In this document: positions 45,391 through 61,668 of the stretch, one piece after another
How positions within the stretch are numbered: position 1 is the stretch's first letter
How the letters are laid out: each line of letters opens with the position of its first letter
Assembly (NCBI GenBank): GCA_965248355.1
Contig: OZ252098.1
Span: forward strand, 352,001 to 416,000
Source: Candidatus Latescibacterota bacterium
GTDB lineage: Bacteria; Latescibacterota; UBA2968; UBA8231
Direction of reading: 5' to 3'
Length of the DNA stretch: 64,000 nucleotides
The notes under the pieces: model-generated
What the model saw: the letters and a program-made list of their open reading frames with translations, nothing else
Database searches by the model: none
What the model was told of the DNA's origin: nothing
Position numbers and translations under genes: made by a program

Positions 45391-46051
45391 GTTCTCTCCA
45401 GGGATCGGGAAGGCCCGCCGCGGCGAAGCCACGGGACCGGAGGCGGCAACTGTGGCAGTCACCGCAGGGGAAGTCGGAGCCAAGGTAGCAGGACCAGGTC
45501 AGGTGCAGGGGTGCTCCCAGCTCCACTCCGCGCCGGACGATGGCGGCCTTGTCGAGGTGGAGCAGGGGCGTGCGCACGCCGATCTCCACCGAGGCCGGGG
45601 TCGCCGCCTCGACGAGCCGGCCGAAGGCGCGGAAGAAGGCCGGTTGCGTATCCGGATAGGGCGATCCGGGAGCGTGGGCCCCGCAGAAGACCTCCGGGGC
45701 GCCGAGAACCTCGGCCCAGGCGACCGCCGCCGCCAGGAGACTGGCGTTGCGAAAGGGGACGTACGTCCCCGGCACCTCACCGCCGCCGGAGCCGTCCCCG
45801 GCGACCGGGAGAGTCCGGTCGGTCAGGCTTGAGCCGCCGAGGTCCCGCAGGTACCGGAGGTCGACCTCCCGCCGGCGCGAGAGGTTGTAGTGATCGGCGA
45901 TCTCCAGGAAGGCCCGCCGCTCCCGGCCCTCGGTTCGCTGGCCGTACCCGGCGTGCATCACCGCTACATCCTCTCCATGGCTTCGCAGGGCTTCCGCCAG
46001 GGCGACACAGCTGTCGAGACCCCCGCTCACGAGGGCGATGGCGGCGGTCAT
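45368..46051 (-). CDS. queC: 7-cyano-7-deazaguanine synthase
   Basis: SGGLDS PP-loop, YGQR, TYVPFRN and TWSCY..CGDCHSC motifs. Confidence 0.9.
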   Translation of the reverse strand: MTAAIALVSGGLDSCVALAEALRSHGEDVAVMHAGYGQRTEGRERRAFLEIADHYNLSRRREVDLRYLRDLGGSSLTDRTLPVAGDGSGGGEVPGTYVPFRNASLLAAAVAWAEVLGAPEVFCGAHAPGSPYPDTQPAFFRAFGRLVEAATPASVEIGVRTPLLHLDKAAIVRRGVELGAPLHLTWSCYLGSDFPCGDCHSCRLRSRGFAAAGLPDPWREHADRIRE

Positions 46052-46113
46052 TGCGAGTGCGGCGGCGGGAATGGAGGGAACCCGGGCAGGAGATGGGCCT
46101 CCCCAATATAAGA

Positions 46114-46141
46114 TTGACACCCCCGGGGGGGTGCATAGATT
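46114..46141 (+). promoter_or_regulatory. Putative promoter for ispH (near-leaderless)
   Basis: TTGACA-N16-TAGATT, 8 nt before the ATG; no SD sequence. Confidence 0.55.
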
Positions 46142-46149
46142 CTCGCGCC

Positions 46150-47436
46150 ATGGCCTTCAAGCAGTTCGACCGGGTGCCCAATCACTACGCCGGCCCCGTC
46201 ATCCAGCGGATCAAGGACTTCCGGGAAAGCGAGGGCAAGCGCTCGCTGGCGCCGACGCGCCTGACCGTTGGCCAGCTCGAGGTGATCGTGCCCCGCCACT
46301 TCGGCTTCTGCTTCGGCGTGGAGCGCGCCATCCACATGGCCTTCTCCGCCATCGACAACCATCCCGACAAGCGGCTCAACCTCCTCAGCGAGATCATCCA
46401 CAACCCCCTGGTCAACGAGGACCTCGAGAACCGGGGGGTCCGATTCATCTACGACAGGAACGGCGAATACGACAGGAACGGCGAACGGCGCGTCGCGGAG
46501 GAGGAGATTTCTTCCGAAGACGTGGTCCTGATCCCCGCTTTCGGCACCACGCGGGAGATCGAGGACTCCCTGCAGCGCAGCGGCATCGACACCACGTCCG
46601 AGGATTTTCGCGAGAACTACGACACCACCTGTCCCTTCGTCTCCAAGGTCTGGAGTCGCGGCGAGGAGCTGGCCCGCGAAGGCTACACCATTCTCATCCA
46701 CGGCAAGTTCCGGCACGAGGAGACCCAGGCCACGCGCTCCCACACCCAGCAGTACGGCAAGACCCTGGTCGTCCTCGACCGGGAGGAAGCGCTGAAGGTG
46801 GCCCGCTTCATCGCCGGCCAGATGAGCGTCGACGAGTTCCGCGAGGGCTTCGAGGGCAAGTGGTCGGAAGGCTTCGACCCGGACCGGGACCTGGCCCGGG
46901 TGGCCGTCGTCAACCAGACGACGATGCTCGCCGAGGAGACCCAGGAGGTGACCGGCATCATCCGCGACGCCATCGCCGAGCGCTACGGCTTCGAGGTCCT
47001 CGACCACCACTTCGCCGATACCGCCGACACTCTGTGCTACGCCACCAACTGGAACCAGAACGCCACCAAGGCGCTCCTCGACGTCCAGCCGGACCTGGCC
47101 GTCATCGTCGGCGGCTACAACAGCTCCAACACCTCCCACCTGGTGGAAATCTGCGAACGCGTGATGCCGAGCTACCTGATCGGTTCGGCCGCCGACCTGC
47201 TGTCCCGGGAGCGCATCCGTCACTTCGACATCCACCGCAAGGAGATCGTCGAGACCCGGAGGTGGCTCCCGGAGGAATTGCCCGTGCGACTGGCCGTCAC
47301 CTCCGGCGCCAGCTGCCCGGACGTGCTGATGAACGACGTGGTGCAGCGCCTCTCCGCCTTCTACGGATACGGCGGCGACGACATCCAGGCCGGGCTCACG
47401 AATCTGGCTCTGCACGAGCCCGCGGTTCTGACCTGA
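46150..47436 (+). CDS. ispH: 4-hydroxy-3-methylbut-2-enyl diphosphate reductase (long form)
   Basis: FGFCFGVERAI, EIIHNP, DTTCPFV, HEET, NQTT, TLCYAT, NSSNT and TSGASCPD motifs. Confidence 0.95.
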   Translation: MAFKQFDRVPNHYAGPVIQRIKDFRESEGKRSLAPTRLTVGQLEVIVPRHFGFCFGVERAIHMAFSAIDNHPDKRLNLLSEIIHNPLVNEDLENRGVRFIYDRNGEYDRNGERRVAEEEISSEDVVLIPAFGTTREIEDSLQRSGIDTTSEDFRENYDTTCPFVSKVWSRGEELAREGYTILIHGKFRHEETQATRSHTQQYGKTLVVLDREEALKVARFIAGQMSVDEFREGFEGKWSEGFDPDRDLARVAVVNQTTMLAEETQEVTGIIRDAIAERYGFEVLDHHFADTADTLCYATNWNQNATKALLDVQPDLAVIVGGYNSSNTSHLVEICERVMPSYLIGSAADLLSRERIRHFDIHRKEIVETRRWLPEELPVRLAVTSGASCPDVLMNDVVQRLSAFYGYGGDDIQAGLTNLALHEPAVLT

Positions 47437-47441
47437 CAGAG

Positions 47442-47744
47442 ATGGTCCTGGCGCGGGTCAAGGGGCAGGCGGTGGCCTCGGCCAAGGTCGCCGATCTCGA
47501 GGGCCGGAGACTGCTGCTCGTGGAGTTGCTCACCGTCGACGGCGACGAGGTCGTCCCCACCCGCAGGCACATGGTCTGCGTCGACTCCGTGGGCGCCGGC
47601 CAGGGCGAGGTCGTCCTTCTCGTGCAGGGCAGCTCGGCCCGTCAGAGTCCGGGGATGGGGGACCTTCCCGTGGACGCCGTTCTGGTGGGCATCGTCCAGT
47701 CGGTCAGCGCCCGGGGTCATCGACTCGTACAGGCCGCCGCATGA
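47442..47744 (+). CDS. BMC pentamer (EutN/CcmL family) #1
   Basis: MVLARVKGQAVASAK..VCVDSVGAGQGEVVLLVQGSSAR..VDAVLVGIV. Confidence 0.92.
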   Translation: MVLARVKGQAVASAKVADLEGRRLLLVELLTVDGDEVVPTRRHMVCVDSVGAGQGEVVLLVQGSSARQSPGMGDLPVDAVLVGIVQSVSARGHRLVQAAA

Positions 47745-47998
47745 GAATGGCACGGGTCATCGGCAACGTCGTCGCCGGCGAACACCATCCCGCCCTCGAT
47801 CACCGCACGATCCTGGTCGTCGACGATGGCGGGGGCACCGCCCTGCAGCTGGCGGTCGACGCCGTGGGCGCGGGCCCTGGCTGCCGGGTCCTGGTCGCGG
47901 ATTCGGGCGCCGCCGGCCGCGAGGTCACGGGTCTCGAGTTCCCGCCCGTGCGCAGCGTCGTCGTGGGTATCGTCGACGGCCCCGGCGAGGCGCCGTGA
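47741..47998 (+). CDS. BMC pentamer (EutN/CcmL family) #2
   Basis: MARVIGNVVA..AVDAVGAGPG..VVVGIVD. Confidence 0.9.
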   Translation: MRMARVIGNVVAGEHHPALDHRTILVVDDGGGTALQLAVDAVGAGPGCRVLVADSGAAGREVTGLEFPPVRSVVVGIVDGPGEAP

Positions 47999-48267
47999 AG
48001 CTGGCCCGCGTTCTCGGTCAGGTCGTTCTGTCGCCGAAGATCGAGCCGTACCGGGACAGGAGCCTGCACCTGATTCAGGACGTGAACCGCGAGCTGCAGG
48101 GCGTGGGCGATCCCGAGGTGGCCGTCACCTGGCAGGCCATGGCCGAGGGAGACCTGGTCGTCGTCGAGGTCGCCCGGGAGGCGTGCAACGCCTTCGACAA
48201 CACGATCCCGGCCGACGCCGTCATCATCGGCCGCGCCGACCGGGTTCACATCGATACCGCTTCCTGA
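47995..48267 (+). CDS. BMC pentamer (EutN/CcmL family) #3, divergent
   Basis: MKLARVLGQVVLSPK..GDLVVVEVAREA..ADAVIIGRAD. Confidence 0.85.
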   Translation: MKLARVLGQVVLSPKIEPYRDRSLHLIQDVNRELQGVGDPEVAVTWQAMAEGDLVVVEVAREACNAFDNTIPADAVIIGRADRVHIDTAS

Positions 48268-48285: not shown

Positions 48286-48843
48286 ATGACAGAGGCTCTG
48301 GGCATGTTGGAGACGGTGGGGCTCACGGGCGCGATCGCCGGCGGAGATGCGATTTCGAAGGCGGCGAAGGTGGAGCTCCTGGGCTGGGACCGGGTGGGCT
48401 CGGGGATGGCGACCGTGTTCTGCGGCGGCGACGTGGCGGCGGTGAAGTCGGCGGTCGACGCCGGTGCGCAGGCGGCGTCGAAGGTGGGAGAGGTGCGCGC
48501 CGTGCACGTGATTCCGCGGCCCCATGCCGACCTGGGGCCGATCCTGCCTTCGAACGGGGGGGGGGAGGTGAGCGGGGTCCGCGCCCTGGGGATGGTGGAG
48601 ACCCGCGGCTCGACGGGGGTCATCGAGGCCGCGGACGCCATGGAGAAGGCGGCGGAGGTGGAGGTGGTCCGCGTCCAGGAGATCGGGGGCGGCTACATCA
48701 CGGTGCTGGTCACCGGGGACGTGGGCAGCGTGCAGTCGGCGGTCACGGCGGGAGCGGAGGCGGCGGAGCGCGTGGGCGAACTGCTCGCACGCCACGTCAT
48801 CGCCCGTCCGTCGGAGGCCGTGCTCTCATTGTATCTGGGATGA
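48286..48843 (+). CDS. Tandem two-domain BMC shell protein (BMC-T)
   Basis: Two ALGM[LV]ET..D...KAA.V..GDV..V.SAV.AG..HVI.RP units. Confidence 0.93.
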
Positions 48844-48856
48844 AAGGGAGAAGGTC

Positions 48857-49123
48857 ATGAGTGCCTTGGGCATGGTGGAGACGCGGGGTCTGGCGGCGGC
48901 TGTGGAGGCCCTGGACGCGATGCTGAAGACGGCGGACGTGAGGTACACGGGCCAGAAGCGTGTGGGCGGGGGCCTGGTGTCGGTCCTGGTGGAGGGGGAC
49001 GTGGCCTCGGTGAAGTCGGCGGTCGACGCCGGCGCCCAGGCGGCCCAGGGCGTGGGGGAGCTGCGCAGCGTGCACGTGATCCCCCGGCCGATCGACAAGC
49101 TCAAGAGCGCCGCCGGCATCTGA
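48857..49123 (+). CDS. Single-domain BMC hexamer (BMC-H, EutM/PduA-like)
   Basis: [33 protein letters not shown]. Confidence 0.95.
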
Positions 49124-49133
49124 CGGGACCGTC

Positions 49134-50558
49134 GTGGCCAAGGTGAGCGAAGACGGGGTCCGCCGCATCGTCGAGGAGGTTGTGGAGCAGGCCCTCGGTT
49201 CAGGGGCCGGATCCGGGGCCCCGGCTGCGGGCGGGTCCGGGGCGGGTCTGTTCCGTTCCGCCGACGAGGCCGTGGCCGCAGCCGGCCGGGCGCAGAGGTC
49301 CCTCGTCGAGCAGAGCCTGGAGCTGAGGCGCAAGATCGTCGAGGCGATCCGGCAGACGACCCGCGACCACGCCGAGACGTTCTCGCGCATGGCCCTCGAA
49401 GAGACGGGCATGGGCCGCTTCGAGGACAAGGTGCAGAAGCACCATCTGGCGGCCGATCTGACCCCCGGCGTCGAGGACCTCGAGTCGGTCTCGTGGACCG
49501 GGGACCACGGCCTGACCGTGGAGGAGATGGCGCCGTATGGCGTCATCTGCGCCGTCACGCCCTCCACCCACCCCGTACCGACCCTGGTGAACAACGCCAT
49601 CGGCATCATCGCCGCGGGCAACTCCGTCGTCTTCAATCCTCACCCCGGCGCCAAGGGAGTCTCCGCCCACTCGGTGCAGCTGCTGAACGACGCCATCGTC
49701 GCCGCCGGCGGGCCCGGGAACCTGATCGCCTGCATCGCCGAGCCGACGATCGAGAGCGCCGGCCAACTGTTCAACCACCGGGGGGTCGGGGTCATACTCG
49801 TCACGGGGGGGGCCGCAGTGGCCCGGGCGGCCCTCGCAAGTCCGAAGAAGTCCATCGTCGCCGGACCGGGGAATCCCCCGGTCGTCGTCGACGAGACCGC
49901 GGACCTCCGCAAGGCCGCGCGGGACATCGTCGACGGGGCCGCCTTCGACAACAACATCCTGTGCATCGGCGAGAAGCAGTGCTTCGTGGTCGACGCCGTG
50001 GCCGACGACCTCAAGGCGGAGATGGTCGCCTACAGCGCGGTCGAGCTCGACCCGGGTCAGGTCGACGCCCTGACCCGCGCGGTCCTGCCCCGGGGCGGGG
50101 ACGGCGAGCATCACCCGAGCCGCGACTTCATCGGCCGCAACGCCAACGTCCTGGGCCGGAGCATCGGCCTGGACCTCGACGACCGGCTGCGGCTGCTGAT
50201 CGGCGAGACCGGCGCCGACCATCCCTTCGTCACGGTGGAGCAGATGATGACCTTCCTGCCCATCGTCCGGGTGCGCGACGTGAGCGAGGGCATCCGCGCC
50301 GCCGTCGAGTCGGAGCACGGCTTCCGCCACACGGCGGTCATCCATTCCCGGAACGTGGAGAACATGCACAACATGGCGCGCGCCGTGGACACCACCGTGT
50401 TCGTCAAGAACGGACCTTCCTACGCCGGTCTCGGCGTCGGCGGCGAAGGGTTCTCCACGTACTCCATCGCCGGCCCCACCGGCGAAGGGCTGACCACGGC
50501 CCGCACTTTTACCCGCCGGCGTCGCTGCGCCCTGGTGGACTACTTCCGCATCACCTGA
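49134..50558 (+). CDS. CoA-acylating aldehyde dehydrogenase (EutE/PduP-like) with N-terminal encapsulation peptide
   Basis: N-terminal EDGVRRIVEEVVEQAL helix plus linker; AGPGNPP, FDNNILCIGEK and PTGEGLT motifs. Confidence 0.92.
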   Translation: MAKVSEDGVRRIVEEVVEQALGSGAGSGAPAAGGSGAGLFRSADEAVAAAGRAQRSLVEQSLELRRKIVEAIRQTTRDHAETFSRMALEETGMGRFEDKVQKHHLAADLTPGVEDLESVSWTGDHGLTVEEMAPYGVICAVTPSTHPVPTLVNNAIGIIAAGNSVVFNPHPGAKGVSAHSVQLLNDAIVAAGGPGNLIACIAEPTIESAGQLFNHRGVGVILVTGGAAVARAALASPKKSIVAGPGNPPVVVDETADLRKAARDIVDGAAFDNNILCIGEKQCFVVDAVADDLKAEMVAYSAVELDPGQVDALTRAVLPRGGDGEHHPSRDFIGRNANVLGRSIGLDLDDRLRLLIGETGADHPFVTVEQMMTFLPIVRVRDVSEGIRAAVESEHGFRHTAVIHSRNVENMHNMARAVDTTVFVKNGPSYAGLGVGGEGFSTYSIAGPTGEGLTTARTFTRRRRCALVDYFRIT

Positions 50559-50561
50559 CCC

Positions 50562-50879
50562 ATGCTCCTCGCCCAGGTGAAGGGTCAAGTCGTGGCCAGC
50601 GCCAAGCTCGACAACCTGTCGGGCCGCAAGCTGCTGCTCGCCGAGGTCCTCACCGTTCGTCCCGACGGGCTGCACGCCACCGGCCGTGAGGTGGTCTGCG
50701 TCGACGCCGTGAGCGCCGGCAGGGGCGACATCGTCCTCGTCGTCATGGGCAGCTCGGCGCGCACGGCCCCGGAGCTGGGCACGGTCCCCACCGACGCCGC
50801 CATCGTCGCCATCCTCGAGGGTCTGACCGCCGACGGCCGGAGGCTCGATCTGGGTCGCGTCGTCGAAGGGGCCGGGTGA
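50562..50879 (+). CDS. BMC pentamer (EutN/CcmL family) #4
   Basis: MLLAQVKGQVVASAK..CVDAVSAGRGD..GSSAR..TDAAIVAI; closest to pentamer #1. Confidence 0.92.
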   Translation: MLLAQVKGQVVASAKLDNLSGRKLLLAEVLTVRPDGLHATGREVVCVDAVSAGRGDIVLVVMGSSARTAPELGTVPTDAAIVAILEGLTADGRRLDLGRVVEGAG

Positions 50880-51586
50880 AGGGCGAAGTGGTCGCCGCCG
50901 TCGACAGGGCCCGGGTGGAGGCGCTGGTCCGCCAGGCCCTGAAGCACCGACTCCCGAATCACCCGGTGGACGCCAGGCCTTCGAGTCCGGCGCCCCGCCT
51001 GGTCGCCAACATCTCGGCCAGGCACTGTCACCTCGACGCGGGATCCCTGGAGACGCTCTTCGGCAAGGGCGCGGAGCTGAAGGTGCTCAAACCTCTCTAC
51101 CAGGCCGGCGCCTTCGCCGCCGAAGAGACGGTGACCATCTTCGGACCGCGCAAGCAGATGATCTCCAACCTGCGCGTCCTCGGACCGCTGCGCGAGGCCT
51201 GCCAGGTGGAGCTCGCCTTCTCCGACGCGCGCTTTCTCGGCATCGACGCCCCGGTGCGGCTCAGCGGACACATCGACGGTTCCCCCGGATGCTACCTGGT
51301 GGGGCCCGCCGGCGGCCAGGAGATGGGCCAGGGCGTGATCCGCGCGGCCCGCCACGTGCACATGAACCCCGAGGAGGCGGCGTTCTACGGCGTCGCCGGC
51401 GGCGACCGAATGCGCCTGGTCGTCCGCAGCGATCAGCCGGGAGCCCTCGAGGACGTGATCGTGCGAGTCGATGCCGGCTCGAAGCTCGAGGTCCACGTCG
51501 ATACCGACGAGGGTAACGCCGTGGATCTCGTCAGCGCCGCAAAGGTCGTTCTCGAGAAGCAACAGCCGGGCGAGGGCAGGCCATGA
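50876..51586 (+). CDS. pduL: Phosphotransacylase with N-terminal encapsulation peptide
   Basis: DRARVEALVRQAL helix; NISARHCHL, RVLGPLR, RHVHM and HVDTDEGNA motifs. Confidence 0.92.
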   Translation: MKGEVVAAVDRARVEALVRQALKHRLPNHPVDARPSSPAPRLVANISARHCHLDAGSLETLFGKGAELKVLKPLYQAGAFAAEETVTIFGPRKQMISNLRVLGPLREACQVELAFSDARFLGIDAPVRLSGHIDGSPGCYLVGPAGGQEMGQGVIRAARHVHMNPEEAAFYGVAGGDRMRLVVRSDQPGALEDVIVRVDAGSKLEVHVDTDEGNAVDLVSAAKVVLEKQQPGEGRP

Positions 51587-51668
51587 GCGCCTTGGGCATG
51601 GTGGAGACGCGGGGCCTGGCGGCCGCGGTAGAGGCGACGTGGCCTCGGTGAAGTCGGCGGGCATCTGA
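51583..51668 (+). pseudogene. Internally deleted remnant of a second BMC-H gene
   Basis: 86 nt made of the 5' end (ATGAGCGCCTTGGGCATGGTGGAGACGCGGGG), middle (GACGTGGCCTCGGTGAAGTCGGCG) and 3' end (GGCATCTGACGGG) of the 48857-49123 gene. Confidence 0.85.
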
Positions 51669-51671
51669 CGG

Positions 51672-52151
51672 GTGACGGGCCGACTGCACATCTCCGAGGC
51701 CGTTGTCACCGAGGAGGTCCTGCGCGCCCGTCACGCCGGACAGGAGGAGGTATCGGTGAACGCCGGGGCGGTGGTGACGCCCACCGGGTGGGACTACCTG
51801 CGGCGCCACCGGATGCGGCTGACCCGGGGCCAGGCGGCAGAGCCGGGCGGTTCCCAGCCGGCGTCCGGCGAGGTCCCGGAGGTGCTGCCGCCGGGCGCCG
51901 AGGGCGGGCTGCTGAGCCGCGGACGCTGCGACCACCCCGACCGCCCGTACGGCTGCAAGACCGAGGAATTCGGCTCCGGATTCGTGGAGCCTTCCTCCTG
52001 CTCCCGGTGCGCGGTGTACCAGGCGGAGCTGGCGGGCCGGCCGAGTTGCGGCTGTGGCGGCTGCAACCGCCGGGTCGCGGCCGAGGAGGAGGAGGAGGCC
52101 CTGGTGCAGCGTCTCACCGACGAGATCATGCGCAGGCTGAAGGAGGAGTGA
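51672..52151 (+). CDS. Uncharacterised Cys-rich BMC-associated protein with C-terminal encapsulation-peptide-like helix
   Basis: N-terminal VVT..VVTPTGWDYLR module; seven Cys including CxxC and CGCGGC; C-terminal EEALVQRLTDEIMRRL. Confidence 0.7.
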   Translation: MTGRLHISEAVVTEEVLRARHAGQEEVSVNAGAVVTPTGWDYLRRHRMRLTRGQAAEPGGSQPASGEVPEVLPPGAEGGLLSRGRCDHPDRPYGCKTEEFGSGFVEPSSCSRCAVYQAELAGRPSCGCGGCNRRVAAEEEEEALVQRLTDEIMRRLKEE

Positions 52152-52156
52152 GGGGC

Positions 52157-52735
52157 GTGTCCGAGGCCATCGGGATGATCGAGGTGGAGGGAGTGGCGGG
52201 CATCGTCGTCGGCGCCGACGCGGCCTGCAAGGCGGCCCAGGTCGAGCTCATGGGCTGGGAGTCGATCGGCGGTTTCACGACCCTCTTCCTGCGCGGCCCT
52301 CTCGGTGACGTGAGCGCCGCCCTTCGCGAAGGCGAAGCGGCGGCCGGGACCGTGACCGGCCACGTGGTCAGCGCCTGCCTGGATCAGCCGCAGCCCGAGT
52401 GCGCCGGCTTCGTCGGTTGTCCCCGGTCGCCGGGCGAGGTGGAGGCGGCCGCCCTGGGCCTGATCGAGACCCGGGGGTACGGCGTCCACGTGGAGGTGAA
52501 CGACGCCATGGTCAAGGCCGCCGGCGTGGCGGTGGCCAACGTGCTCACCGTGCACAACCGCGTCGTGTGCAGCCTGATCACCGGTCCCGTGGACGCCGTG
52601 GAGCAGGCCATCGGCCGCGGCCGGGAGCGGTTGGCCGGCGACGAGTGGTTCATGGCCTCGGCCGTGATCCCACAGCCCCTCCCGTCGGTGCTGAGCGCCT
52701 TCGTCCTCTTCCGTCCCACCGCCGGGACGAGCTGA
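52157..52735 (+). CDS. Two-domain BMC shell protein (divergent BMC-T)
   Basis: GTG start; AIGMIEVEG..ADAACKAA and ALGLIETRG..DAMVKAA..VIPQP domains. Confidence 0.88.
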   Translation: MSEAIGMIEVEGVAGIVVGADAACKAAQVELMGWESIGGFTTLFLRGPLGDVSAALREGEAAAGTVTGHVVSACLDQPQPECAGFVGCPRSPGEVEAAALGLIETRGYGVHVEVNDAMVKAAGVAVANVLTVHNRVVCSLITGPVDAVEQAIGRGRERLAGDEWFMASAVIPQPLPSVLSAFVLFRPTAGTS

Positions 52736-53886
52736 TGGAGCGCGCCCTGGGCATCCTGGAGGTCAGGGGCATGACGGCCCTGGCGGCGGCCCTCGACTCG
52801 ATGCACAAGGCGGCCTCCGTGCGGCTGGCCGGACGCCACGGGGTCGGCTCCGGCTGGTTGACGGCGATCGTCGAGGGCGCCACGGCGGACGCGCGCACCG
52901 CCCTCGACGCGGGTCGCGAGGCGGCCGCCGCCCACGGCGACGTGATCACCGCCGTCGTCGTTCCGGGAGCCGAGCCCGCGGCCCTCGAGCCGATGCCCCA
53001 CTCCGGCGTCTCCCTCGAGGCCGGGACCGGTCTCCAGGCCCTCGGCCTTCTCGAGACCCGGGGCCTCGTCCCCCTGGCCGCCGGCGCCGACGCCATGGTC
53101 AAGGCGGCCGACGTGGAGCTCCACGGCTGGTCCTTCATCGGCGGCGCCTTGATGCACGCCGCGGTCACCGGCTCCGTGGGGGCCGTGGAGGCCGCCGTGC
53201 AGGCCGGGGAGCGGTCCGCCCGGAGGGCGGGCGAGTTCCATGGCGCCCTGGTGCTTCCCCAACCGGAGCCCCAGGTGGGAGTCCTGCTGCCCTCCGGGCC
53301 GGCGGGAACTCCGCCGCCCGCCGGCGCCCTCGGGATCGTCGAGGCCACGGGGTACGTGGCCTCGGTGGCCGCCGGCGACGGCATGGTGAAGGGAGCACGC
53401 GTCGACCTGGCGCGGCTGACCATCGGCAGCGGGGGCCGGGTGGCGGCCGTCGCCACCGGAGCCCTGGACGAAGTCGGCGCCGCCGTCGCGGAGGGGGCCC
53501 GCCGGGTCGAGGAGACGGCGGAGCTCGAGGGGCAGGTGGTGATCAGCGGTCCCGACCCCCGAGTCCTGGCCTGCTTCGCCCAGGCCGCCGGGTCCCCCGG
53601 CGAGCGCCCTCTCGCGGGCCGGGCCATGGGCCTGGTGGAGACGCGCACCACCATCGGTCTCGCAAAGGCCCTCGACGAGATGCTCAAGAACGCCGACGTG
53701 ACCTACGAGGGCCGGTACAAGGCGGGCTACTTCCTCACGGCCTGTGTCGTGCGCGGAGAGACGGGGGCCGTCGACACCGCTCTCGACGTGGCGCGGCGCA
53801 CCGCCGGTCGCTACGGGGAGCTGGTGGCCGCCCGCGCCATCCCCTTACCCTATGACGAGATGGAGGTGCGCCTGCCTCACGGGTAG
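52735..53886 (+). CDS. Four-domain BMC shell protein (383 aa)
   Basis: Four consecutive BMC units starting ALGILEVRG, ALGLLETRG, ALGIVEATG and AMGLVETRT, each with D.M.K.A.V and a terminal P-x-P-like strand, joined by short Pro/Gly linkers. Confidence 0.88.
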   Translation: MERALGILEVRGMTALAAALDSMHKAASVRLAGRHGVGSGWLTAIVEGATADARTALDAGREAAAAHGDVITAVVVPGAEPAALEPMPHSGVSLEAGTGLQALGLLETRGLVPLAAGADAMVKAADVELHGWSFIGGALMHAAVTGSVGAVEAAVQAGERSARRAGEFHGALVLPQPEPQVGVLLPSGPAGTPPPAGALGIVEATGYVASVAAGDGMVKGARVDLARLTIGSGGRVAAVATGALDEVGAAVAEGARRVEETAELEGQVVISGPDPRVLACFAQAAGSPGERPLAGRAMGLVETRTTIGLAKALDEMLKNADVTYEGRYKAGYFLTACVVRGETGAVDTALDVARRTAGRYGELVAARAIPLPYDEMEVRLPHG

Positions 53887-55098
53887 GTGTCCCAGGACAT
53901 GGTCCGTATCGACGATCCCGTAGTCACCGCCCAACTGCTCGAGGGCCGTCTCGGGCAGGACGACCGGCAGGTCGAGATCTCACCGCGTTCGACGGTCACC
54001 CCCTCCGCCAAGGATCTCCTGCGGGCCCGGGGGATCGAAGTCGTGCCGCCGTCGCAGGGCGCGTCCAGCCCCGCGCTCCCGCCCGCCGGCGTGCCCGCGC
54101 CTCCGGGAGGAACCGAGCGGAGCCGCCGGTTCAGCGGCATCTTCACGCCCAACATCGTGATCTACGACGAGCAGGGGCGGATCGCCTACGGCGAGATGGA
54201 GCGCTACATCGCGTGGCTCATCGACGCCGGCATCCACGGACTCTACCCGAACGGCAGCACGGGGGAGTTCGTGCGCCTCTCCAGCGAGGAACGGCGCGAC
54301 GTGGTGCGGCTCATCGCCGAGGTCAACCAGGGCCGGGTGCCGATCCTGGCCGGCGCCAGCGAGGCCAACATCCGCGACGTGCTGCAGATGGCCGAGTACT
54401 ACGCCGACCTCGGCGCCGACGCCATCTCCCTCGTGCCGCCCTACTACTACAAGATCTCCGACACGAGCCTGTACGAGTACTTCGCCGAGATCGCCCGCCA
54501 CTCCCCCCTCGACATCCTGCTCTACAACATCCCGCAGTTCACCCAGGAGCTGCCCCTGGACACGATGGAGCAGCTCCTCGCCTACGAACGCATCTTCGGC
54601 ACCAAGGATTCCAGCCGCGACCTGCCGCGCATCGTCAACACCATGGATCGCCTGCGCCGGCACCGGCCCGACTACGTCGTGCTCAACGGCTGCGAGGAGA
54701 TCCTGCTGCCGTCGATCGTCATGGGGGCCAACGGCGGCACCATCGCCACCTCCGGCATCGTTCCCGAGATCATCGTCGAGCTCTACGACCGCACCGTCGC
54801 CGGGGATCTCCAGCGGGCGAAGGAGCTTCAGTACCGTCTCCTGCCCCTGATCAACCTCATGCTGCTGGGGGTGAATTTCCCCGAGGGATTCAAGACCGGC
54901 GTGGCCGTGCGCGGCTTCGAGGTCGGTCCGCCGCGGACCGTGCTGAGCGCCGAGGAGCGCGACTACCTGCTGCGCCTGGAGTCCGAGATCGGCTGCGTCC
55001 TTGGCGACATGGGTTATTCCGTCCGCGGTGCCCGGGGTTGCCCGGTGACCCATCTGCCGCCCATCGTGGCCGGCCGGAAGCCCCCGCCCGGGGGCTGA
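53887..55098 (+). CDS. DapA/NAL-family class I aldolase with N-terminal BMC-associated extension
   Basis: NGSTGEF, PPYY, LYNIP and Schiff-base KDSS motifs; ~75 aa N-terminal extension ending in a Pro-rich linker. Confidence 0.88.
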   Translation: MSQDMVRIDDPVVTAQLLEGRLGQDDRQVEISPRSTVTPSAKDLLRARGIEVVPPSQGASSPALPPAGVPAPPGGTERSRRFSGIFTPNIVIYDEQGRIAYGEMERYIAWLIDAGIHGLYPNGSTGEFVRLSSEERRDVVRLIAEVNQGRVPILAGASEANIRDVLQMAEYYADLGADAISLVPPYYYKISDTSLYEYFAEIARHSPLDILLYNIPQFTQELPLDTMEQLLAYERIFGTKDSSRDLPRIVNTMDRLRRHRPDYVVLNGCEEILLPSIVMGANGGTIATSGIVPEIIVELYDRTVAGDLQRAKELQYRLLPLINLMLLGVNFPEGFKTGVAVRGFEVGPPRTVLSAEERDYLLRLESEIGCVLGDMGYSVRGARGCPVTHLPPIVAGRKPPPGG

Positions 55099-55120
55099 GG
55101 CCGCCCGGCAGGCCTCGATC

Positions 55121-56221
55121 GTGAGCGCCGGGGACCGCGCCCGGGTCCTGGTGGCCGGCGCCGGCATCGTCGGACGTTCCGTCGCCTACTACCTCTCCCG
55201 GTCGGGTGTCTCCGTGGTAGTCGCCGACCGGGATCCGTCGCCTTCCGCCACCACCCGGGCCTCCCTCGGCGTCCTCACCCGGCCCACCGGAGGGGAGGAT
55301 CCGTTCTCCTCCTTCCACCGGGACGGCCATGCCCTGCACGAGGAGCTGAGCGTCCGGCTGCGCGAGGAGACCGGCCGTGACGCGGGCTGGCGGCCCCTCG
55401 GAGGACTGGACCTGGCCTTCGGCGAGGAGGAGGCCGAGGGGCTACGCTCCCTCGTCGATGAGAGCCGGTCTCGTGGAGTCCGGGCCGAGTGGCTCGAGCC
55501 GCGCCAGGTGCGGGAGGCGGAGCCGGCCCTGTCGGAGGCCGTGTGCGGGGCTTCCTTCTACCCCCAGGACAGCCGCGTCGACCCGCCGAGCCTGGCGTCG
55601 GTGCTGCAACGGGCGGCCGAGGCCCGGGGCGCCGAGTTCCGCTTCCAGGCCACGGTGGCGGCTTTGCGTACCACGTCCGGAGGAGTGGAGTGCGATCTGC
55701 GCGACGGCGCCGGATCCCGGCGAGCCGTCTTCGATGCGGCCGTGATCGCCGCCGGATCCTGGTCGGGGGAGATCGCCGGTCCGGCGGCCGGGAGGCTGCA
55801 GGTGCGCCCGGTACGTGGCCAGAGCGGTCTGTTCTCCGGCGACCCCGTACACCACCTGGTGCGCTGGTCCGGGATGCACGTGCTGCCGGTCCCAGGGGGC
55901 CTCCTCGCAGGGGGAACGGTGGAGGAGGCCGGGTTCAGCGCCGGGACCACGCCAGCGGCGGGGCGGAAGCTGACCGCCTGGTGCGAGCGCGTCCTGGCCC
56001 GCAAGCCGATCCTGCGCCGGCAGCGCGCCGGGCTGCGTCCCAAGCCGCGGCAGGGCCGCCCCCTCGTCGGCCCCCTGCCCGGTGCCGCGAACCTGTGGGC
56101 GGCCACCGGGCACTACAGGAACGGCGTGCTGTTGGCTCCGATCACGGGCCAGGTCCTGGCCCGGTGGCTGACAGGGGGCGAGCCCGGCCGGGACATGTCC
56201 CGCTTTGCCGTCGATCGTTGA
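55121..56221 (+). CDS. FAD-dependent oxidoreductase, glycine oxidase ThiO/DadA family
   Basis: VAGAGIVG, AAGSW, PVRGQ, AGLRP and ATGHYRNGVLLAPITG motifs. Confidence 0.85.
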   Translation: MSAGDRARVLVAGAGIVGRSVAYYLSRSGVSVVVADRDPSPSATTRASLGVLTRPTGGEDPFSSFHRDGHALHEELSVRLREETGRDAGWRPLGGLDLAFGEEEAEGLRSLVDESRSRGVRAEWLEPRQVREAEPALSEAVCGASFYPQDSRVDPPSLASVLQRAAEARGAEFRFQATVAALRTTSGGVECDLRDGAGSRRAVFDAAVIAAGSWSGEIAGPAAGRLQVRPVRGQSGLFSGDPVHHLVRWSGMHVLPVPGGLLAGGTVEEAGFSAGTTPAAGRKLTAWCERVLARKPILRRQRAGLRPKPRQGRPLVGPLPGAANLWAATGHYRNGVLLAPITGQVLARWLTGGEPGRDMSRFAVDR

Positions 56222-56296
56222 CGGCCGTCGAGGGGCCTCCGTACTCTCTACGGCCTCTGCCGACCGTCGCCCTTACCCAACCGACCGGAGCCCTGC

Positions 56297-57238
56297 ATGC
56301 CCTACAGCACCGAAGATCTGCTCGACGCCCTGGACACGGTCATCTCGATCCCCATCGTCCCCTTCCGCGCAGGCCGGATCGACTACGAAGCCCACGGAAA
56401 GAACATCGACTACCTCCTGGGCACGAAGGCGCTGGAGGGGGACCGCGAGCGCGTGATCTCCATCGCCGGCACGAGCCTCGTGCACCATATCGATACGGAC
56501 GAGCAGCTGAACCTGATGGAGTACACGGCGGCCCGGGTGGCGGGCAGGGGCATCTTCATCTCCGGCGTGGCACCCAACCCCCTGGCCGACGCCGAGCGGC
56601 TGATCGCGGCCCAGTGCCGCCTGGCGAATCCGCCCGACGCCTTTCTGCTCATGCCGCTGACGGGGGTGGCCGATCCGCAGGGCATCTACCACGGGTACAT
56701 GGCCCTGGCGGAGAGGCTCGGAGGGGACCACGGCGCTCGCTTCCTCTACTACCTGCGACAGTCCAACCAGGCGCCGGCCGCCGTGCGGCTGGTGAACGAT
56801 TCGCCCCACTTTCTCGGGGTCAAGATCGGCACCCGCCCCGAGGACGTGAAGCCCATGGTGGAGGGCGTCCGGAAGGGCGCCGGCATCGTCATCTGGGGGA
56901 TCGGCGACCGCAGCACGGGACCGGCCCGGGAGGGCGCCAGAGGCCACACCTCGGGGATCAACGTGGTCTTCGCCAAGGCCTCCGACGAGATCAACAACGC
57001 CCAGCGCCGCGGAGACTACGAGCGCGCCGGGCAGGTCGAGGAGGAGCTGACGGCCCTGGAGGAGATCCGCTTCCGCGACGATCGCCGCTACAACTACTCC
57101 GCTGTGGTCGAGGCCATGCACCTGAGCGGGTTCGACGATATCGAGGGCGGCGAGGGCGGTCCCTTCAACCCGCGGGTGCCCTCCGAAGTGGCCGGCGAGG
57201 TGGAGGCCGCCATCCGGCCGATCCTGCACTACCACTGA
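56297..57238 (+). CDS. Divergent DapA-like TIM-barrel lyase
   Basis: IPIVPF..IDY..GKNIDYL, LYY and GVKIG motifs; lacks canonical GxxGE. Confidence 0.65.
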   Translation: MPYSTEDLLDALDTVISIPIVPFRAGRIDYEAHGKNIDYLLGTKALEGDRERVISIAGTSLVHHIDTDEQLNLMEYTAARVAGRGIFISGVAPNPLADAERLIAAQCRLANPPDAFLLMPLTGVADPQGIYHGYMALAERLGGDHGARFLYYLRQSNQAPAAVRLVNDSPHFLGVKIGTRPEDVKPMVEGVRKGAGIVIWGIGDRSTGPAREGARGHTSGINVVFAKASDEINNAQRRGDYERAGQVEEELTALEEIRFRDDRRYNYSAVVEAMHLSGFDDIEGGEGGPFNPRVPSEVAGEVEAAIRPILHYH

Positions 57239-58355: not shown

Positions 58356-59417
58356 ATGCCCATGGATTCCTCCACTTTCCTCTATTGGGGAGCCGGCTTG
58401 GTGGCCGCTCTGGCCCTGCTCCTGTGGCCCGGGCGCGGTTGCCTGCGCCGATGGCGCCGGCTGGAGGGGCTGCGGGAGCGAATCCTGCTGGAGGACGGGC
58501 TCAAGCACCTCTACGACTGCGAGTACCAGGAGCGTACCGCCAGCGTCGAGAGCCTCGCAGGGGCCATCGAGGTCCCGAAGAGCCGCGCCGCAACCGTCCT
58601 CATCCGGCTGGAGTCCCTGGGGCTCGTCTCCACACTGGAGCACGGCATGGCCCTGACCGGCTATGGCCGGGACGAGGCCCTCCGGATCGTGCGTATCCAC
58701 CGACTCTGGGAACGCTACCTGGCCGAGCGCACCGGCGTCAGCCGGTCCCGCTGGCACGAGGAAGCGGAGCGCCGGGAGCACCACCTCTCGGCTGAGGAGA
58801 TGGAGAAGCTGTCCCGGGAGATGGGCCACCCGACCTACGATCCCCACGGCGATCCGATCCCCACGGCGGAAGGGGAGGTGCCCCCGCCCAGGACGGTCCG
58901 CCTGCCGGCCCTCGAGGAGGGCGAGCTGGCCCGGATCGAGCACGTCGAGGACGAGCCCGAGGAGGTCTACCGCCAGCTGACGGAAGCCGGCCTGCATCCG
59001 GGCACCCGGGTGCAGCTGGTGAGCGCCGGCGAAGAGGAGATCCGGCTGGTCGCCGACGGCCGGTCTCACAGCCTGCCGCCGGTGGTGGCCGGCAACGTCT
59101 TCGTGCACCCGGTGGACGGAGAGATGCCGGGGCCGTACGACAGCCTGGACGAGCTGGCCCGGGGAGAGCGGGCCCGCGTGGTGGGCATCTCGCCCGCCTG
59201 CCGGGGCCTGGAGCGCCGCCGGCTGCTGGACCTGGGCCTGCTGCCGGGGACCGAGGTCCGCGTCGAGATGGTGAGCCCCACCGGCGATCCGGTGGCCTAC
59301 CAGGTGCGCGGGGCGACGGTCGCTCTGCGGCGTCAGCAGGCCGGGCAGATCCAGGTCGAGCGCGACCTGCCGGAGGCGCCCCCGGCCGCCGCTCTGCAAG
59401 GAAAGGGATCGAGATGA
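58356..59417 (+). CDS. DtxR-like protein with N-terminal TM helix and two C-terminal FeoA domains
   Basis: [32 protein letters not shown] and DPHGDPIP motifs; GLHPG and LGLLPG..GDPVAY..VALR FeoA repeats. Confidence 0.85.
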
Positions 59418-60244
59418 CCGGCGAACCCACCGCCGCCAGCTCCTGCGAGGCTTGTCCGGCCCATCACGCCGCCAATCTGATCCGCCTCGGCGTGAACATG
59501 GCCAACTGGGACTTCGTGGTCGCCCTCGCGGGAAACCCGAACACCGGAAAGACCACGGTCTTCAACGCCCTGACGGGGTTGCGGCAGCACACCGGCAACT
59601 GGCCCGGCAAGACCGTGGTGCGCGCCGAAGGCGGCTTCGCCTATGCGGGGGCCCGCTACAAGCTGGTCGACCTGCCCGGAACATACTCCCTGCTCTCCAC
59701 CAGCGATGACGAGGAGGTGGCGCGGGACTTCCTCCTCTTCGGCAGTCCCGACGTGACCGTGATCGTCGTCGATGGGACCCTGCTGGAGCGCAATCTCAAC
59801 CTCGCGCTGCAGGTCCTCGAGATCACCGACCGCGCCGTCGTCTGTCTGAATCTGATGGACGAGGCCGAACGCCGGGGCATGGAGGTGGACGACCGGCGCC
59901 TGGCCCGTGACCTCGGCGTCCCGGTGGTGCCCGCCGTGGCGCGCCGGAGCCAGGGCATCCCGGAGCTGCTGCAGGCGGTGGCCGAGGTGGCCACGGGACG
60001 GGCCTCCTGCAAACCGCACCGGATCGAGCCGCCCCCGGGGTTGAAGGTTGCCGTGGAGGAGCTCATGGCCGAGGTGTCGGCCGCCTTTCCCGGGCTGCCC
60101 AATGCGCGCTGGGTGGCCCTGAGGCTGCTGGAAGGTGATCCGCGCATCGTCGAGGCCGTGCGCTCCGGAGAGATCGCCGATCTCGGGCGTCACCTGGCGA
60201 GGGCCGCCTCGGAGGCCGAACAGGCCCGGCTGGAGGTGAGCTGA
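59414..60244 (+). CDS. feoB: FeoB N-terminal GTPase (split FeoB)
   Basis: [24 protein letters not shown] and NLMDEA motifs. Confidence 0.9.
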
Positions 60245-61668
60245 TGGAGCAGCGCCTTCACCCGGAGACGATCCTTTCCCGGGCCGGCTCCCTGCGCTGG
60301 GAGGCGGGCCGCAACTTCCACGACGAGCTCGTGGAGTCCATCTACACCGATGCGGTCCGCATCGCCGACCGCGCCGTGACCCGCCAGGGAGAGCGCGGGC
60401 GTTTCGACCTGGACCGCACGGTCGACCGCTTCGTTACCAGCCGCTGGCTCGGCTTCCCGCTGATGCTCCTGATGCTGACCGTGGTGTTCTGGCTGACCAT
60501 CGAGGGCGCCAACTACCCCTCGGCCATGCTCGCGACGCTGCTCGTCGATTCCATCCACCCCGCTCTCAAGAGCGGGGCCGCCGCCATCGGCGTGCCGTGG
60601 TGGCTCGATGGTCTGCTGATCGATGGCATGTACCTGGCCATGGCCTGGGTGATCAGCGTCATGCTGCCGCCCATGGCGATCTTCTTCCCGCTCTTCACCC
60701 TGCTCGAGGACTTCGGCTACCTGCCGAGGGTGGCCTTCAACCTCGACGGCCTGTTCCGGCGCGCCGGCGCCCACGGGAAGCAGGCCCTGACCATGGCCAT
60801 GGGATTCGGCTGCAACGCCGCGGCCATCGTCGCCACGCGCGTCATCGACAGCCCCCGGGAACGCCTGATCGCCATCATCACCAACAACTTCTCCCTCTGC
60901 AACGGCCGCTGGCCGACGCAGATCCTGGTGGCCACCATCTTCATCGGCGGTCTCGTGCCCGCGCACTTGGCGGGCCTGGTTTCGGCAGCGGCCGTGGTGA
61001 CCGTGGCCGTGGCCGGAATCCTGCTGACCTTCGCCGTCTCCTGGGGCCTGTCCCGAACCGTGCTCAGGGGCGAGGCCTCCGCTTTCAGCCTGGAGTTGCC
61101 TCCCTATCGACCGCCCCAGATCCTGCGCACGATCTACACCTCGGTGATCGACCGCACCCTCATCGTCCTGTGGCGGGCCGTGGTCTTCGCCATTCCCGCC
61201 GGGGCCCTGATCTGGCTGTCCTCCAACATCACCATCGGGCAGGCCAGCCTGGCCGAGCACTTCATCGACTTCACCGGACCCTTCGGCGCCCTCGTCGGCC
61301 TCAACGGGGTGATCCTGCTGGCCTACGTGATCGCCATCCCGGCCAACGAGATCATCATTCCCACGATCCTCATGCTCACGGTCATGAGCGCCGGCTCGCC
61401 GGAGCTCGGGGCGGGGGTGGGGGTGATGTTCGAGCTCGACTCGGAGACGGATACCGCCCGGATCCTGGCCTCCGGCGGCTGGACCCTGCTGACGGCGGTG
61501 AACCTGATGCTCTTCAGCCTGGTCCACAATCCGTGCTCGACGACGATCTACACGATCTACAAGGAGACCCGGAGCGCCAGGTGGACCACGGTTTCGGCGC
61601 TGCTGCCGGTGGTGATGGGCTTCGTCCTCTGCTTCCTCGTCGCTCTCGTCTGGCGCACCCTGGGCTGA
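60244..61668 (+). CDS. feoB: FeoB C-terminal membrane (Gate) domain (split FeoB)
   Basis: [26 protein letters not shown] and HNPCSTT motifs; own GGAGG RBS and TGATG overlap. Confidence 0.9.

What the first reader, a model, noticed from the sequence alone, without database searches (positions are those of the whole stretch)
52157..53886. Four-domain BMC shell protein coupled to a two-domain partner: a 2+4 asymmetric pseudohexamer
Seen: the 383 aa ORF has four complete but mutually divergent BMC domains, and it starts in a TGATG overlap with the stop of a divergent two-domain BMC gene. Known: shell tiles contain six BMC domains, normally from six BMC-H (one domain) or three BMC-T (two domains) chains; four does not divide six. 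Inference: the two proteins form a 1:1 heterodimer with six different domains, giving a fully asymmetric tile with a unique pore and distinct edges. The junction is a -1 offset, so a single missing base would instead give one six-domain chain, which would be equally unusual.
Basis: partly seen in the sequence, partly recalled or inferred. Interest (0 to 1): 0.9.

Follow-up and report, generated by a model that had tools for sequence, protein, structure and literature searches.

The report
Two-plus-four-domain microcompartment shell gene pair
Two overlapping genes encode a two-domain and a four-domain microcompartment shell protein that always occur together and most likely join one-to-one into a single six-domain hexagonal tile with no internal symmetry, a kind of shell building block that I could not find described.

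Summary
Gene A (52157-52735, 192 aa) has two BMC (PF00936) domains. Gene B (52735-53886, 383 aa) has four. They overlap in TGATG.

The pair is not an artefact. A lies directly upstream of B in 82 of the 84 genomes of the phylum that carry either gene. The two exceptions are cut by contig ends, and no genome has B without A. A stop codon always separates them, the junction sequences differ between lineages, and I saw no six-domain fusion. Contigs from independent runs cross the junction without indels.

Each of the six domain positions forms its own clade. All six keep the edge Asp/Lys pair.

The complex model closes a ring: B domain 1 touches A domain 2, and B domain 4 touches A domain 1. Its score is 0.84 against 0.00 for the best control. 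This pass may only reflect likeness to solved BMC hexamers.

I read the pair as a 1:1, six-domain, fully asymmetric pseudohexamer (confidence about 0.7). It is a new variant of a known kind. Eight full-text searches and the main texts of four papers gave no description of it. Binding and function are untested.

The parts
52157..52735 (+). Gene A: two-domain BMC shell protein, 192 aa, GTG start
   Evidence: PF00936, 2 stretches, E 6.2e-33. Orthologues are 48-88% identical in 84 of 168 genomes of the phylum.
52166..52369 (+). A domain 1 (PF00936)
   Evidence: 64.9 bits, profile positions 1-71. It forms its own clade with support 1.0.
52451..52678 (+). A domain 2 (PF00936)
   Evidence: 57.7 bits, profile positions 1-75. 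It forms its own clade with support 1.0. In the model it contacts B domain 1.
52733..52737 (+). TGATG stop/start overlap between A and B
   Evidence: The same 1-nt overlap occurs in 9 of 35 distinct pairs. The other pairs have overlaps of 4-8 nt or spacers of 1-14 nt.
52735..53886 (+). Gene B: four-domain BMC shell protein, 383 aa
   Evidence: PF00936, 4 stretches, E 5.2e-61. The search returned 123 homologues. B is present in 83 of 168 genomes of the phylum. AF2 model: pLDDT 90.0, pTM 0.89.
52744..52965 (+). B domain 1 (PF00936)
   Evidence: 59.2 bits. Clade support 0.87. In the model it contacts A domain 2.
53038..53265 (+). B domain 2 (PF00936)
   Evidence: 75.9 bits. Clade support 0.98.
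53326..53553 (+). B domain 3 (PF00936)
   Evidence: 48.2 bits. Clade support 0.99.
53623..53847 (+). B domain 4 (PF00936)
   Evidence: 51.7 bits. Clade support 1.0. In the model it contacts A domain 1.
48286..48843 (+). Context: a second, ordinary-looking two-domain BMC gene (185 aa) in the same operon. It is a possible rival partner for B.
   Evidence: PF00936, 2 stretches, E 5.3e-49. Its two domains are 49% identical to each other and 52-57% identical to the neighbouring BMC-H.
48857..49123 (+). Context: single-domain BMC-H gene (88 aa)
   Evidence: E 2.8e-27.
47442..48267 (+). Context: three consecutive EutN/CcmL (BMC-P) genes. The start of the first is approximate.
   Evidence: PF03319 at 47741-47998, at 47995-48267, and at residues 469-553 of the open frame 46038-47744.
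49134..51586 (+). Context: aldehyde dehydrogenase, a fourth BMC-P gene, and PduL-type phosphotransacylase
   Evidence: PF00171, PF03319, PF06130.
53887..57238 (+). Context: DHDPS-family lyase with an 80-aa N-terminal extension, an FAD (DAO) oxidoreductase, and a second DHDPS-family gene

Best explanation
A and B are two subunits of one hexagonal shell tile of a metabolosome-type bacterial microcompartment. They are translated from one message in roughly equal amounts, by stop/start overlap or a very short spacer. One A chain (two domains) and one B chain (four domains) close into a six-domain ring in the order A1-A2-B1-B2-B3-B4. The ring has the size and edge chemistry of a BMC hexamer but no rotational symmetry. 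It would tile into facets beside the operon's BMC-H, its ordinary two-domain BMC protein and its BMC-P pentamers.

Each of the six positions has its own conserved pore loop. These loops include an invariant His and Trp in B1, an invariant Arg and a nearly invariant His in A2, an invariant Arg in B3, and an invariant Tyr and a nearly invariant Lys in B4. The tile would therefore carry one unique, largely basic or aromatic pore and six non-equivalent edges.

Shown: the domain counts, the conservation of the pair, the coupling, and the position-specific conservation. Inferred: the 1:1 assembly, which rests on arithmetic, genomics and a model, and the role of the pore, which is speculative. A conduit or binding site for an anionic metabolite or cofactor would suit a lumen that holds a pyruvate-lyase-type enzyme, an acylating aldehyde dehydrogenase and a phosphotransacylase.
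For: 1. Domain counts are 2 and 4. Solved BMC tiles hold six domains (established knowledge; the catalogue paper's introduction).

2. B occurs in 83 and A in 84 of 168 genomes of the phylum. A lies directly upstream of B on the same strand in 82 of the 84. There are 0 genomes with B alone.

3. In 35 of 35 distinct pairs the A stop and the inferred B start are -8 to +14 nt apart, and 16 pairs overlap. A stop is always present, also in the 5 loci where both genes share a frame (L091, L093, L101, L106, L107).

4. No homologue near 575 aa appears among the 120 listed of 123 hits. Listed lengths are 225-397 aa and the search range was 210-671 aa.

5. The complex model scores ipSAE 0.84 (runs 0.82, 0.84, 0.84) against 0.00 for the best of 3 controls. 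This mark was reached by 58 of 80 solved complexes and 2 of 110 mismatched pairs. The runs agree in at least 92% of contacts and the partner's pLDDT is at least 89. The interface uses only B residues 5-88 and 305-335, and A residues 5-85 and 106-187. The lowest-error pairs join B-D1 to A-D2 and B-D4 to A-D1, as a closed ring requires.

6. B alone folds with pLDDT 90.0 and pTM 0.89. Its first two domains superpose on the solved BMC-H tandem fusion 6NER at Z 21.8, rmsd 2.0 A over 180 residues (Foldseek TMt about 0.9). That is the geometry of neighbouring hexamer subunits.

7. All six Asp and Lys residues of the D-x-x-x-K edge motif are invariant across 35 (A) and 34 (B) sequences.

8. Each domain position is a separate clade with support 0.87-1.0.

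9. Residues at the predicted interface are more conserved than the rest: mean column entropy 0.51 against 0.78 in A, and 0.48 against 0.81 in B.

10. Contigs from two RNA libraries and one DNA run cross the junction with no gaps.
Against: The complex pass may come from the model's memory of solved BMC hexamers and trimers. The three controls were unrelated proteins, not other BMC proteins. They therefore do not show that A, rather than the operon's other two-domain protein (48286-48843), is B's partner, nor that A cannot form a homotrimer.

I found no covariation. The 25 lowest-error contact pairs are mostly invariant columns, with mutual information of 0.25 or less. Residues near BMC pores and subunit interfaces are conserved in any BMC oligomer, so point 9 is weak.

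Profile comparison and the tree show no odd/even pattern among the six domains. The pair is thus not visibly a triplicated two-domain unit.

I had no coordinates of the models, so ring closure is read from contact lists alone. There is no experimental evidence. RNA-library contigs can contain DNA.
Confidence: 0.7

Rival explanations
1. A is an ordinary BMC-T that forms its own homotrimer. B assembles without A. Three B chains could supply twelve domains for two tiles, either stacked or side by side with one chain bridging. Alternatively, B chains could daisy-chain neighbouring tiles and act as a covalent staple of the facet.
For: Twelve is divisible by both four and six. Double-layer trimers are a known BMC form (BMC-T^dp, described in the catalogue paper's introduction). 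All six domains keep the edge Lys, which this reading also allows. The complex tool cannot exclude homo-oligomers.
Against: This reading does not explain why A is glued to B in 82 of 84 genomes with coupling-type junctions. It also does not explain why A's two domains are so divergent and position-specific. B's three linkers are of similar length, and its monomer model is rigid (pTM 0.89) with hexamer-like neighbour geometry. That fits a 240-degree arc better than two separate pairs. The domains are not circularly permuted (profile positions 1 to 71-75 in order), unlike the known stacking trimers.
Confidence: 0.13
2. B closes its ring with a different or an interchangeable two-domain partner, namely the operon's 185-aa BMC-T (48286-48843). 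Or both A3 trimers and A-B heterodimers exist, so the tile population is mixed rather than strictly 1:1.
For: A second two-domain BMC gene lies 3.3 kb upstream in the same operon. In the tool's own calibration, close cousins of a true partner often pass the complex test too.
Against: The 185-aa protein is not adjacent to B. Its two domains resemble BMC-H (52-57% identity) and each other (49%), as expected for a self-sufficient trimer. The residues of A that contact B in the model (Tyr108, Arg135, Gly107) are invariant and specific to that position.
Confidence: 0.12
3. The split is an artefact: either a frameshift error in a six-domain gene, or a wrongly fused pair of two-domain genes.
For: The junction is a -1 overlap, so one missing base would fuse the frames.
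Against: The stop between A and B is present in 12 of 12 loci and 30 of 30 loci, although their junction sequences differ. No indel appears in the contigs of three independent runs that bridge the junction. B is a single uninterrupted frame in 40 of the 41 fetched loci; L011 is broken. It is also uninterrupted in 123 database homologues of about 380 aa.
Confidence: 0.01

Closest known systems
BMC-T^s, the standard tandem-domain shell proteins (PduT; Haliangium ochraceum BMC-T1; CcmO)
   Same: They are canonical, non-permuted PF00936 domains fused head to tail on one chain, and they fill a hexagon-shaped tile. NCBIfam's CcmO model is the best hit for both A and B, though far below its cut-off (73 and 193 bits against 270). 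Chains of 3N79/3PAC (PduT) and 5DIH/6N06 (HO BMC-T1) are Foldseek hits.
   Different: BMC-T^s has two domains per chain and forms a homotrimer with threefold symmetry (catalogue paper's introduction). B has four domains and cannot fill a hexagon with copies of itself. A and B together would form a heterodimer with no symmetry. Foldseek superposes PduT and HO-T1 on B only poorly as two-domain units (rmsd about 16 A, TMt 0.40-0.47).
Synthetic BMC-H tandem fusion of Haliangium ochraceum (PDB 6NER)
   Same: It is the best match to both A and B by sequence (E 1.9e-25 and 1.8e-35) and to B by structure (Z 21.8, rmsd 2.0 A over 180 residues). BMC-H-like domains are joined by a short linker into neighbouring positions of the ring.
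   Different: It is an engineered duplication of one domain that still forms a symmetric trimer. The pair here is natural, has six different domains, and is split 2+4 over two genes.
Mixed-subunit hexamers such as CcmK3/CcmK4 of beta-carboxysomes
   Same: More than one gene product sits in a single hexagonal tile, which lowers the symmetry of the pore.
   Different: Those are single-domain chains that, as I recall, mix in variable ratios. Here the arithmetic and gene coupling would fix both the stoichiometry and the order of all six positions.
MUF2 locus type of the BMC catalogue (Sutter et al. 2021, PMC8217296)
   Same: The main text lists MUF2 among metabolosomes of unknown function that have an aldehyde dehydrogenase. 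This operon has one.
   Different: The type's definition and locus diagrams are in Supplementary Data 2, which I could not open. I therefore tested neither the assignment nor whether the four-domain gene is noted there. The main text names only six shell-protein classes, none with more than two domains.

Membership tests
BMC shell proteins (Pfam PF00936) | One or more PF00936 domains above the gathering score | tested here: met
   A scores 113 bits and B 203 bits against a cut-off of 24.5. Six separate matches are over the cut-off.
BMC shell proteins (Pfam PF00936) | Encoded in a locus with BMC-P (PF03319) genes and cargo enzymes | tested here: met
   The operon holds four PF03319 genes, an aldehyde dehydrogenase, a PduL-type phosphotransacylase and DHDPS-family lyases.
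BMC-T^s (standard trimer) | Exactly two canonical, non-permuted PF00936 domains per chain | tested here: not met
   B has four. A taken alone meets this feature: it has two domains covering profile positions 1-71 and 1-75 in order.
BMC-T^s (standard trimer) | Forms a homotrimer that fills one hexagonal tile | not testable with these tools
   The single complex job went to A+B. A3 and B3 were not modelled, and three B chains exceed the tool's 1000-residue limit.
BMC-T^sp / BMC-T^dp (permuted, single- or double-layer trimers) | Circularly permuted PF00936 domains | tested here: not met
   All six matches run from profile position 1 to 71-75 in the normal order. The secondary-structure order in each domain of the model matches BMC-H.
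Hetero-oligomeric BMC tile | Two different chains in one closed ring | tested here: inconclusive
   The model gives ipSAE 0.84 against 0.00 for the best control, with contacts that close a ring. The pass may reflect likeness to solved hexamers. There is no experiment.
MUF2 BMC locus type | The type-specific gene set as defined in the catalogue's Supplementary Data 2 | not testable with these tools
Supplements are closed. Only the name appears in the main text.

The most novel reading that the evidence does not exclude
A and B form an obligate 1:1 heterodimer that is the first natural BMC shell tile with no rotational symmetry. This would be a new shell-protein class beside BMC-H, BMC-T and BMC-P. 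Its six non-equivalent edges could dictate the tile's orientation and neighbours in the facet. Its single conserved His/Arg/Lys/Trp/Tyr-lined pore could be a dedicated gate or ligand site. Three-domain BMC proteins also occur in public data. Together they would show that the number of domains per chain in BMC tiles evolves freely among 1, 2, 3 and 4.
Probability: 0.5. Interest if true: 0.8.

Novelty: new variant of a known kind. Interest (0 to 1): 0.72.

Why it matters
Current descriptions build BMC shells from symmetric tiles, namely hexamers, trimers and pentamers. This symmetry limits how specific a pore or an edge can be. A natural tile whose six positions are all genetically distinct would show how evolution breaks that symmetry completely.

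Such a tile would offer a shell component in which each pore residue and each edge can be changed on its own. Shell engineers approached this goal by building the synthetic tandem fusion 6NER.

It would also pose a testable question: what does a unique, conserved, basic pore do in a widespread metabolosome of unknown function? The pair occurs in about half of the sampled genomes of this phylum.

The pair is small, 575 residues in total. That makes it well suited to co-expression, native mass spectrometry and cryo-EM.

Tried and rejected
**Triplication origin.** I tested whether A, B-D1D2 and B-D3D4 are three copies of one two-domain ancestor. Neither pairwise identities, profile-profile scores nor the domain tree shows an odd/even pattern. 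The origin stays open.

**Covariation across the predicted interface.** The contact columns are mostly invariant, so there is no signal either way.

**Iron-sulfur site in A's linker.** The window's copy has three Cys there. Only Cys138, which lies in domain 2, is invariant, and the linker Cys residues are not among the invariant or nearly invariant columns. I dropped the idea.

**Six-domain fusions.** None appeared among the 120 listed of 123 hits in the 210-671 aa range, nor in any locus. The long open frames reported (up to 1007 aa) are stop-free stretches that extend beyond the called gene. They are not fusions, because A and B keep their stop in the loci of those genomes among L081-L110.

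**Other phyla.** Loci L013-L080 matched only weakly. I inspected two of these 68 (L013 and L017). Both hold separate single-domain BMC genes. I did not examine the rest.

**Three-domain proteins.** One metagenome scan with P0134 returned 9 loci, none matching over three domains. Their gene context remains unknown.

**Literature.** Eight full-text searches and term searches inside four papers found no mention of BMC proteins with three or four domains. The four papers were PMC8217296 and its preprint, PMC4207490 and PMC9052549; I read passages only. PMC3909097 (passages) was not relevant. The review by Melnicki et al. 2021 is not held. The catalogue's supplements are closed, so a description there cannot be excluded.

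**Read-laying joints.** The joints listed (52183 to 53088/53089) carry 32-33 foreign letters. I take them to be contigs of other BMC paralogues or other organisms, not deletions.

**Earlier notes of this scan.** There were none near this place and none on four-domain tiles.
Full report
**Observation**

The window holds a GTG-started frame at 52157-52735 (gene A, 192 aa). An ATG-started frame at 52735-53886 (gene B, 383 aa) overlaps A's stop codon as TGATG at 52733-52737, and B lies in the -1 frame relative to A.

Pfam's BMC model PF00936 matches A in two stretches (E 6.2e-33) and B in four (E 5.2e-61). Both scores are far above the 24.5-bit cut-off. A six-frame scan of the window's own genome gives six separate matches here, each over the cut-off and covering profile positions 1 to 71-75 in normal order. 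The domains are therefore complete and not circularly permuted. They are 23-39% identical to one another.

**Setting**

The pair sits inside a plus-strand microcompartment operon. Its genes run in this order:
- three consecutive EutN/CcmL (BMC-P) genes (about 47442-48267)
- a 185-aa two-domain BMC gene
- an 88-aa BMC-H
- an aldehyde dehydrogenase
- a fourth BMC-P
- a PduL-type phosphotransacylase
- a 159-aa ORF with no family match
- A and B
- a DHDPS-family lyase with an 80-residue N-terminal extension
- an FAD (DAO-family) oxidoreductase
- a second DHDPS-family gene

The genome (5.5 Mb, one contig) has 11 BMC domains in all. Nine are in this operon and two are lone BMC-H genes elsewhere. I could not test that label, because the definition is in a supplement that is closed. 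The catalogue's main text only lists MUF2 among metabolosomes of unknown function.

**Is the pair real and conserved?**

B has 123 database homologues at E <= 0.001, and 120 were listed. The full-length ones are 365-397 aa and 44-98% identical. The records that carry a source name are called Gemmatimonadota or Latescibacterota.

Among 168 genomes of the window's phylum, B is found in 83 (E <= 1e-40) and A in 84 (E <= 1e-25). I compared the two coordinate lists. A lies directly upstream of B on the same strand and contig in 82 of the 84 genomes.

The two exceptions are both fragmented assemblies:
- In G096, A is cut at a contig end and B was not found.
- In G124, A and a partial B lie on different contigs.

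No genome has B without A.

I read the junction in 12 of 12 orthologous loci from named records. I also read it in 30 of 30 loci from the phylum search, one of which is the window's own. The two sets overlap, and together with the window they give 35 distinct pairs.

A stop codon always ends A, but the junctions differ between lineages. Taking the start codon nearest the homologous N-terminus, they are:
- a 1-nt overlap in 9 pairs
- an 8-nt overlap in 6 pairs
- a 4-nt overlap in 1 pair
- spacers of 1-14 nt in 19 pairs

In five loci the two genes share a frame and are still separated by a stop. No hit in the 210-671 aa search range is near the 575 aa of a fusion.

Contigs from two metatranscriptome libraries bridge the junction: X17 record 2 (52148-52886) and X18 record 9 (52501-52939). 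So does a DNA run from another study (X8 record 22, 51636-54000). All three cross it with zero gaps, and no insertion or deletion is listed anywhere in the stretch. RNA-library contigs can contain DNA, so this hints at transcription but does not prove it.

A frameshift artefact, or a hidden six-domain gene, is excluded as far as sequence data can exclude it.

**Anatomy of the six positions**

I built a tree of all domain copies: 35 from each A position, 34 from each B position, plus the operon's other three BMC domains. Each of the six positions forms its own split with support 0.87-1.0. The six-position layout is therefore older than the sampled diversity, and the domains do not homogenise.

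The tree and profile-profile scores show no odd/even pattern. I could not show that the pair arose by triplication of a two-domain unit.

The Asp and Lys of the D-x-x-x-K motif in the first helix are invariant in all six domains (A: D21/K25 and D116/K120; B: D21/K25, D119/K123, D215/K219 and D314/K318). In PduA the corresponding Lys26 governs hexagon-to-hexagon tiling. That rests on the abstract of PMC4139245 as listed; the equivalence of positions is my inference from the shared motif. All six edges therefore look competent for tiling.

The loop that lines the central pore in BMC-H differs at each position and is conserved within each:
- B1 has an invariant His35 and Trp41.
- A2 has an invariant Arg135 and a nearly invariant His133.
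- B3 has an invariant Arg235.
- B4 has an invariant Tyr332 and a nearly invariant Lys329.

In the window's copy, none of the six domains keeps the Arg of the 'P-R-P' stretch that the operon's BMC-H and 185-aa protein have. The family consensus does have Arg-Pro at B3.

**Structure predictions**

B alone, folded with a 34-row alignment, gives pLDDT 90.0 and pTM 0.89. That is a confident relative placement of four domains. Its residues 2-188 superpose on the solved synthetic BMC-H tandem fusion 6NER at Z 21.8 and rmsd 2.0 A over 180 residues (Foldseek TMt about 0.9). Consecutive domains thus sit like neighbouring subunits of a hexamer. 6NER is also the best sequence match for both A and B among solved structures, and no listed chain is longer than 213 residues.

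The A+B complex job gave ipSAE 0.84 (runs 0.82, 0.84, 0.84) against 0.00 for the best of three controls. The runs agree in at least 92% of contacts and the partner's pLDDT is at least 89. In the tool's calibration, 58 of 80 solved complexes and 2 of 110 mismatched pairs reached this mark.

The interface uses only B residues 5-88 and 305-335, and A residues 5-85 and 106-187. The lowest-error pairs join B domain 1 to A domain 2 and B domain 4 to A domain 1. No residue of B domains 2 or 3 is in the list. A closed ring A1-A2-B1-B2-B3-B4 predicts exactly this pattern.

Several limits apply:
- BMC hexamers and trimers are well represented among solved structures, so the pass may show likeness only.
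- The controls were unrelated proteins. They do not test A against the operon's other two-domain protein or against A homotrimers.
- I saw contact lists, not coordinates.

Predicted interface residues are more conserved than the rest, but that is expected of any BMC oligomer. Because the columns are invariant, there is no covariation signal.

**Interpretation**

I rank three rivals:
- **A as an ordinary trimer, B assembling alone (about 0.13).** B would form two tiles from three chains or bridge neighbouring tiles. This does not explain the strict pairing.
- **An interchangeable or mixed partner, such as the 185-aa protein (about 0.12).**
- **An artefact (about 0.01).**

What the asymmetric tile is for is inference only. 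Candidates are a single basic, aromatic pore suited to an anionic metabolite or cofactor, or edges that fix the tile's orientation in the facet.

**Comparison with what is known**

The closest natural class is BMC-T^s (PduT, HO BMC-T1, CcmO). B fails that class's defining two-domain count. Foldseek superposes those chains on B poorly as two-domain units (rmsd about 16 A). I did not resolve why.

The closest solved object is the engineered tandem BMC-H fusion 6NER. Mixed CcmK3/CcmK4 hexamers are a looser analogue of a heteromeric tile; I recall them from memory and did not retrieve them.

The main text of the BMC catalogue (PMC8217296) and the BMC Caller paper (PMC9052549) define six shell classes, none with more than two domains (passages read).

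Eight full-text searches found no mention of three- or four-domain BMC proteins. The catalogue's supplements and the Melnicki 2021 review could not be read, so a brief prior note cannot be ruled out.

**Verdict**

This is a real, conserved and apparently undescribed variant of a known kind of protein, with a specific and cheaply testable structural prediction. I score interest at 0.72.

Noticed in passing
Proteins P0130, P0133-P0136, P0138, P0139, P0141, P0154, P0177: Ten of the ten 283-330-aa relatives I tested carry three PF00936 stretches. They sit in small clusters on up to 7 contigs, one of them named Dehalococcoidia. Two such chains would also make six domains. A metagenome scan with one of them found no three-domain locus, so their gene context is unknown.
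   Followed up: partly
window 51672-52151 (+) and 53887-54130 (+): The 159-aa ORF just upstream of A has no Pfam match. Its first 45 or so residues resemble the N-terminal extension of the DHDPS-family lyase just downstream of B (34% identity over 65 columns, pairwise E 0.006). It ends in an acidic run followed by a charged stretch that I guess is helical. These may be cargo-docking or encapsulation elements.
   Followed up: partly
window about 47442-48267 and 50562-50879 (+): The operon has four EutN/CcmL (BMC-P) genes: a run of three plus one after the aldehyde dehydrogenase. The catalogue paper describes BMC-P triplets, but I did not examine a fourth copy.
   Followed up: no
model m35f7c1807a57 against PDB 3N79/3PAC (PduT) and 5DIH/6N06 (HO BMC-T1): Foldseek aligns about 185-199 columns of these natural tandem proteins to B, but with rmsd 15.5-16.6 A. 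The synthetic fusion 6NER fits at about 2 A. The two-domain geometry or chain direction around the ring may differ from that of natural BMC-T^s.
   Followed up: no
G097: One genome has a second A-type match on another contig (C304:792-1340), in addition to the copy next to B. It could be a duplicate, a strain mixture or contamination.
   Followed up: no
window 58356-61668 (+): Downstream of the microcompartment operon lies an iron-uptake cluster. It has an iron-dependent repressor domain fused to FeoA domains, and FeoB split into an N-terminal GTPase ORF and a membrane ORF.
   Followed up: no
L011:3294-4425: In one MAG the B orthologue is interrupted after about 290 codons and resumes in another frame. 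This is probably an assembly error or a pseudogene. I left it out of alignment A2.
   Followed up: partly
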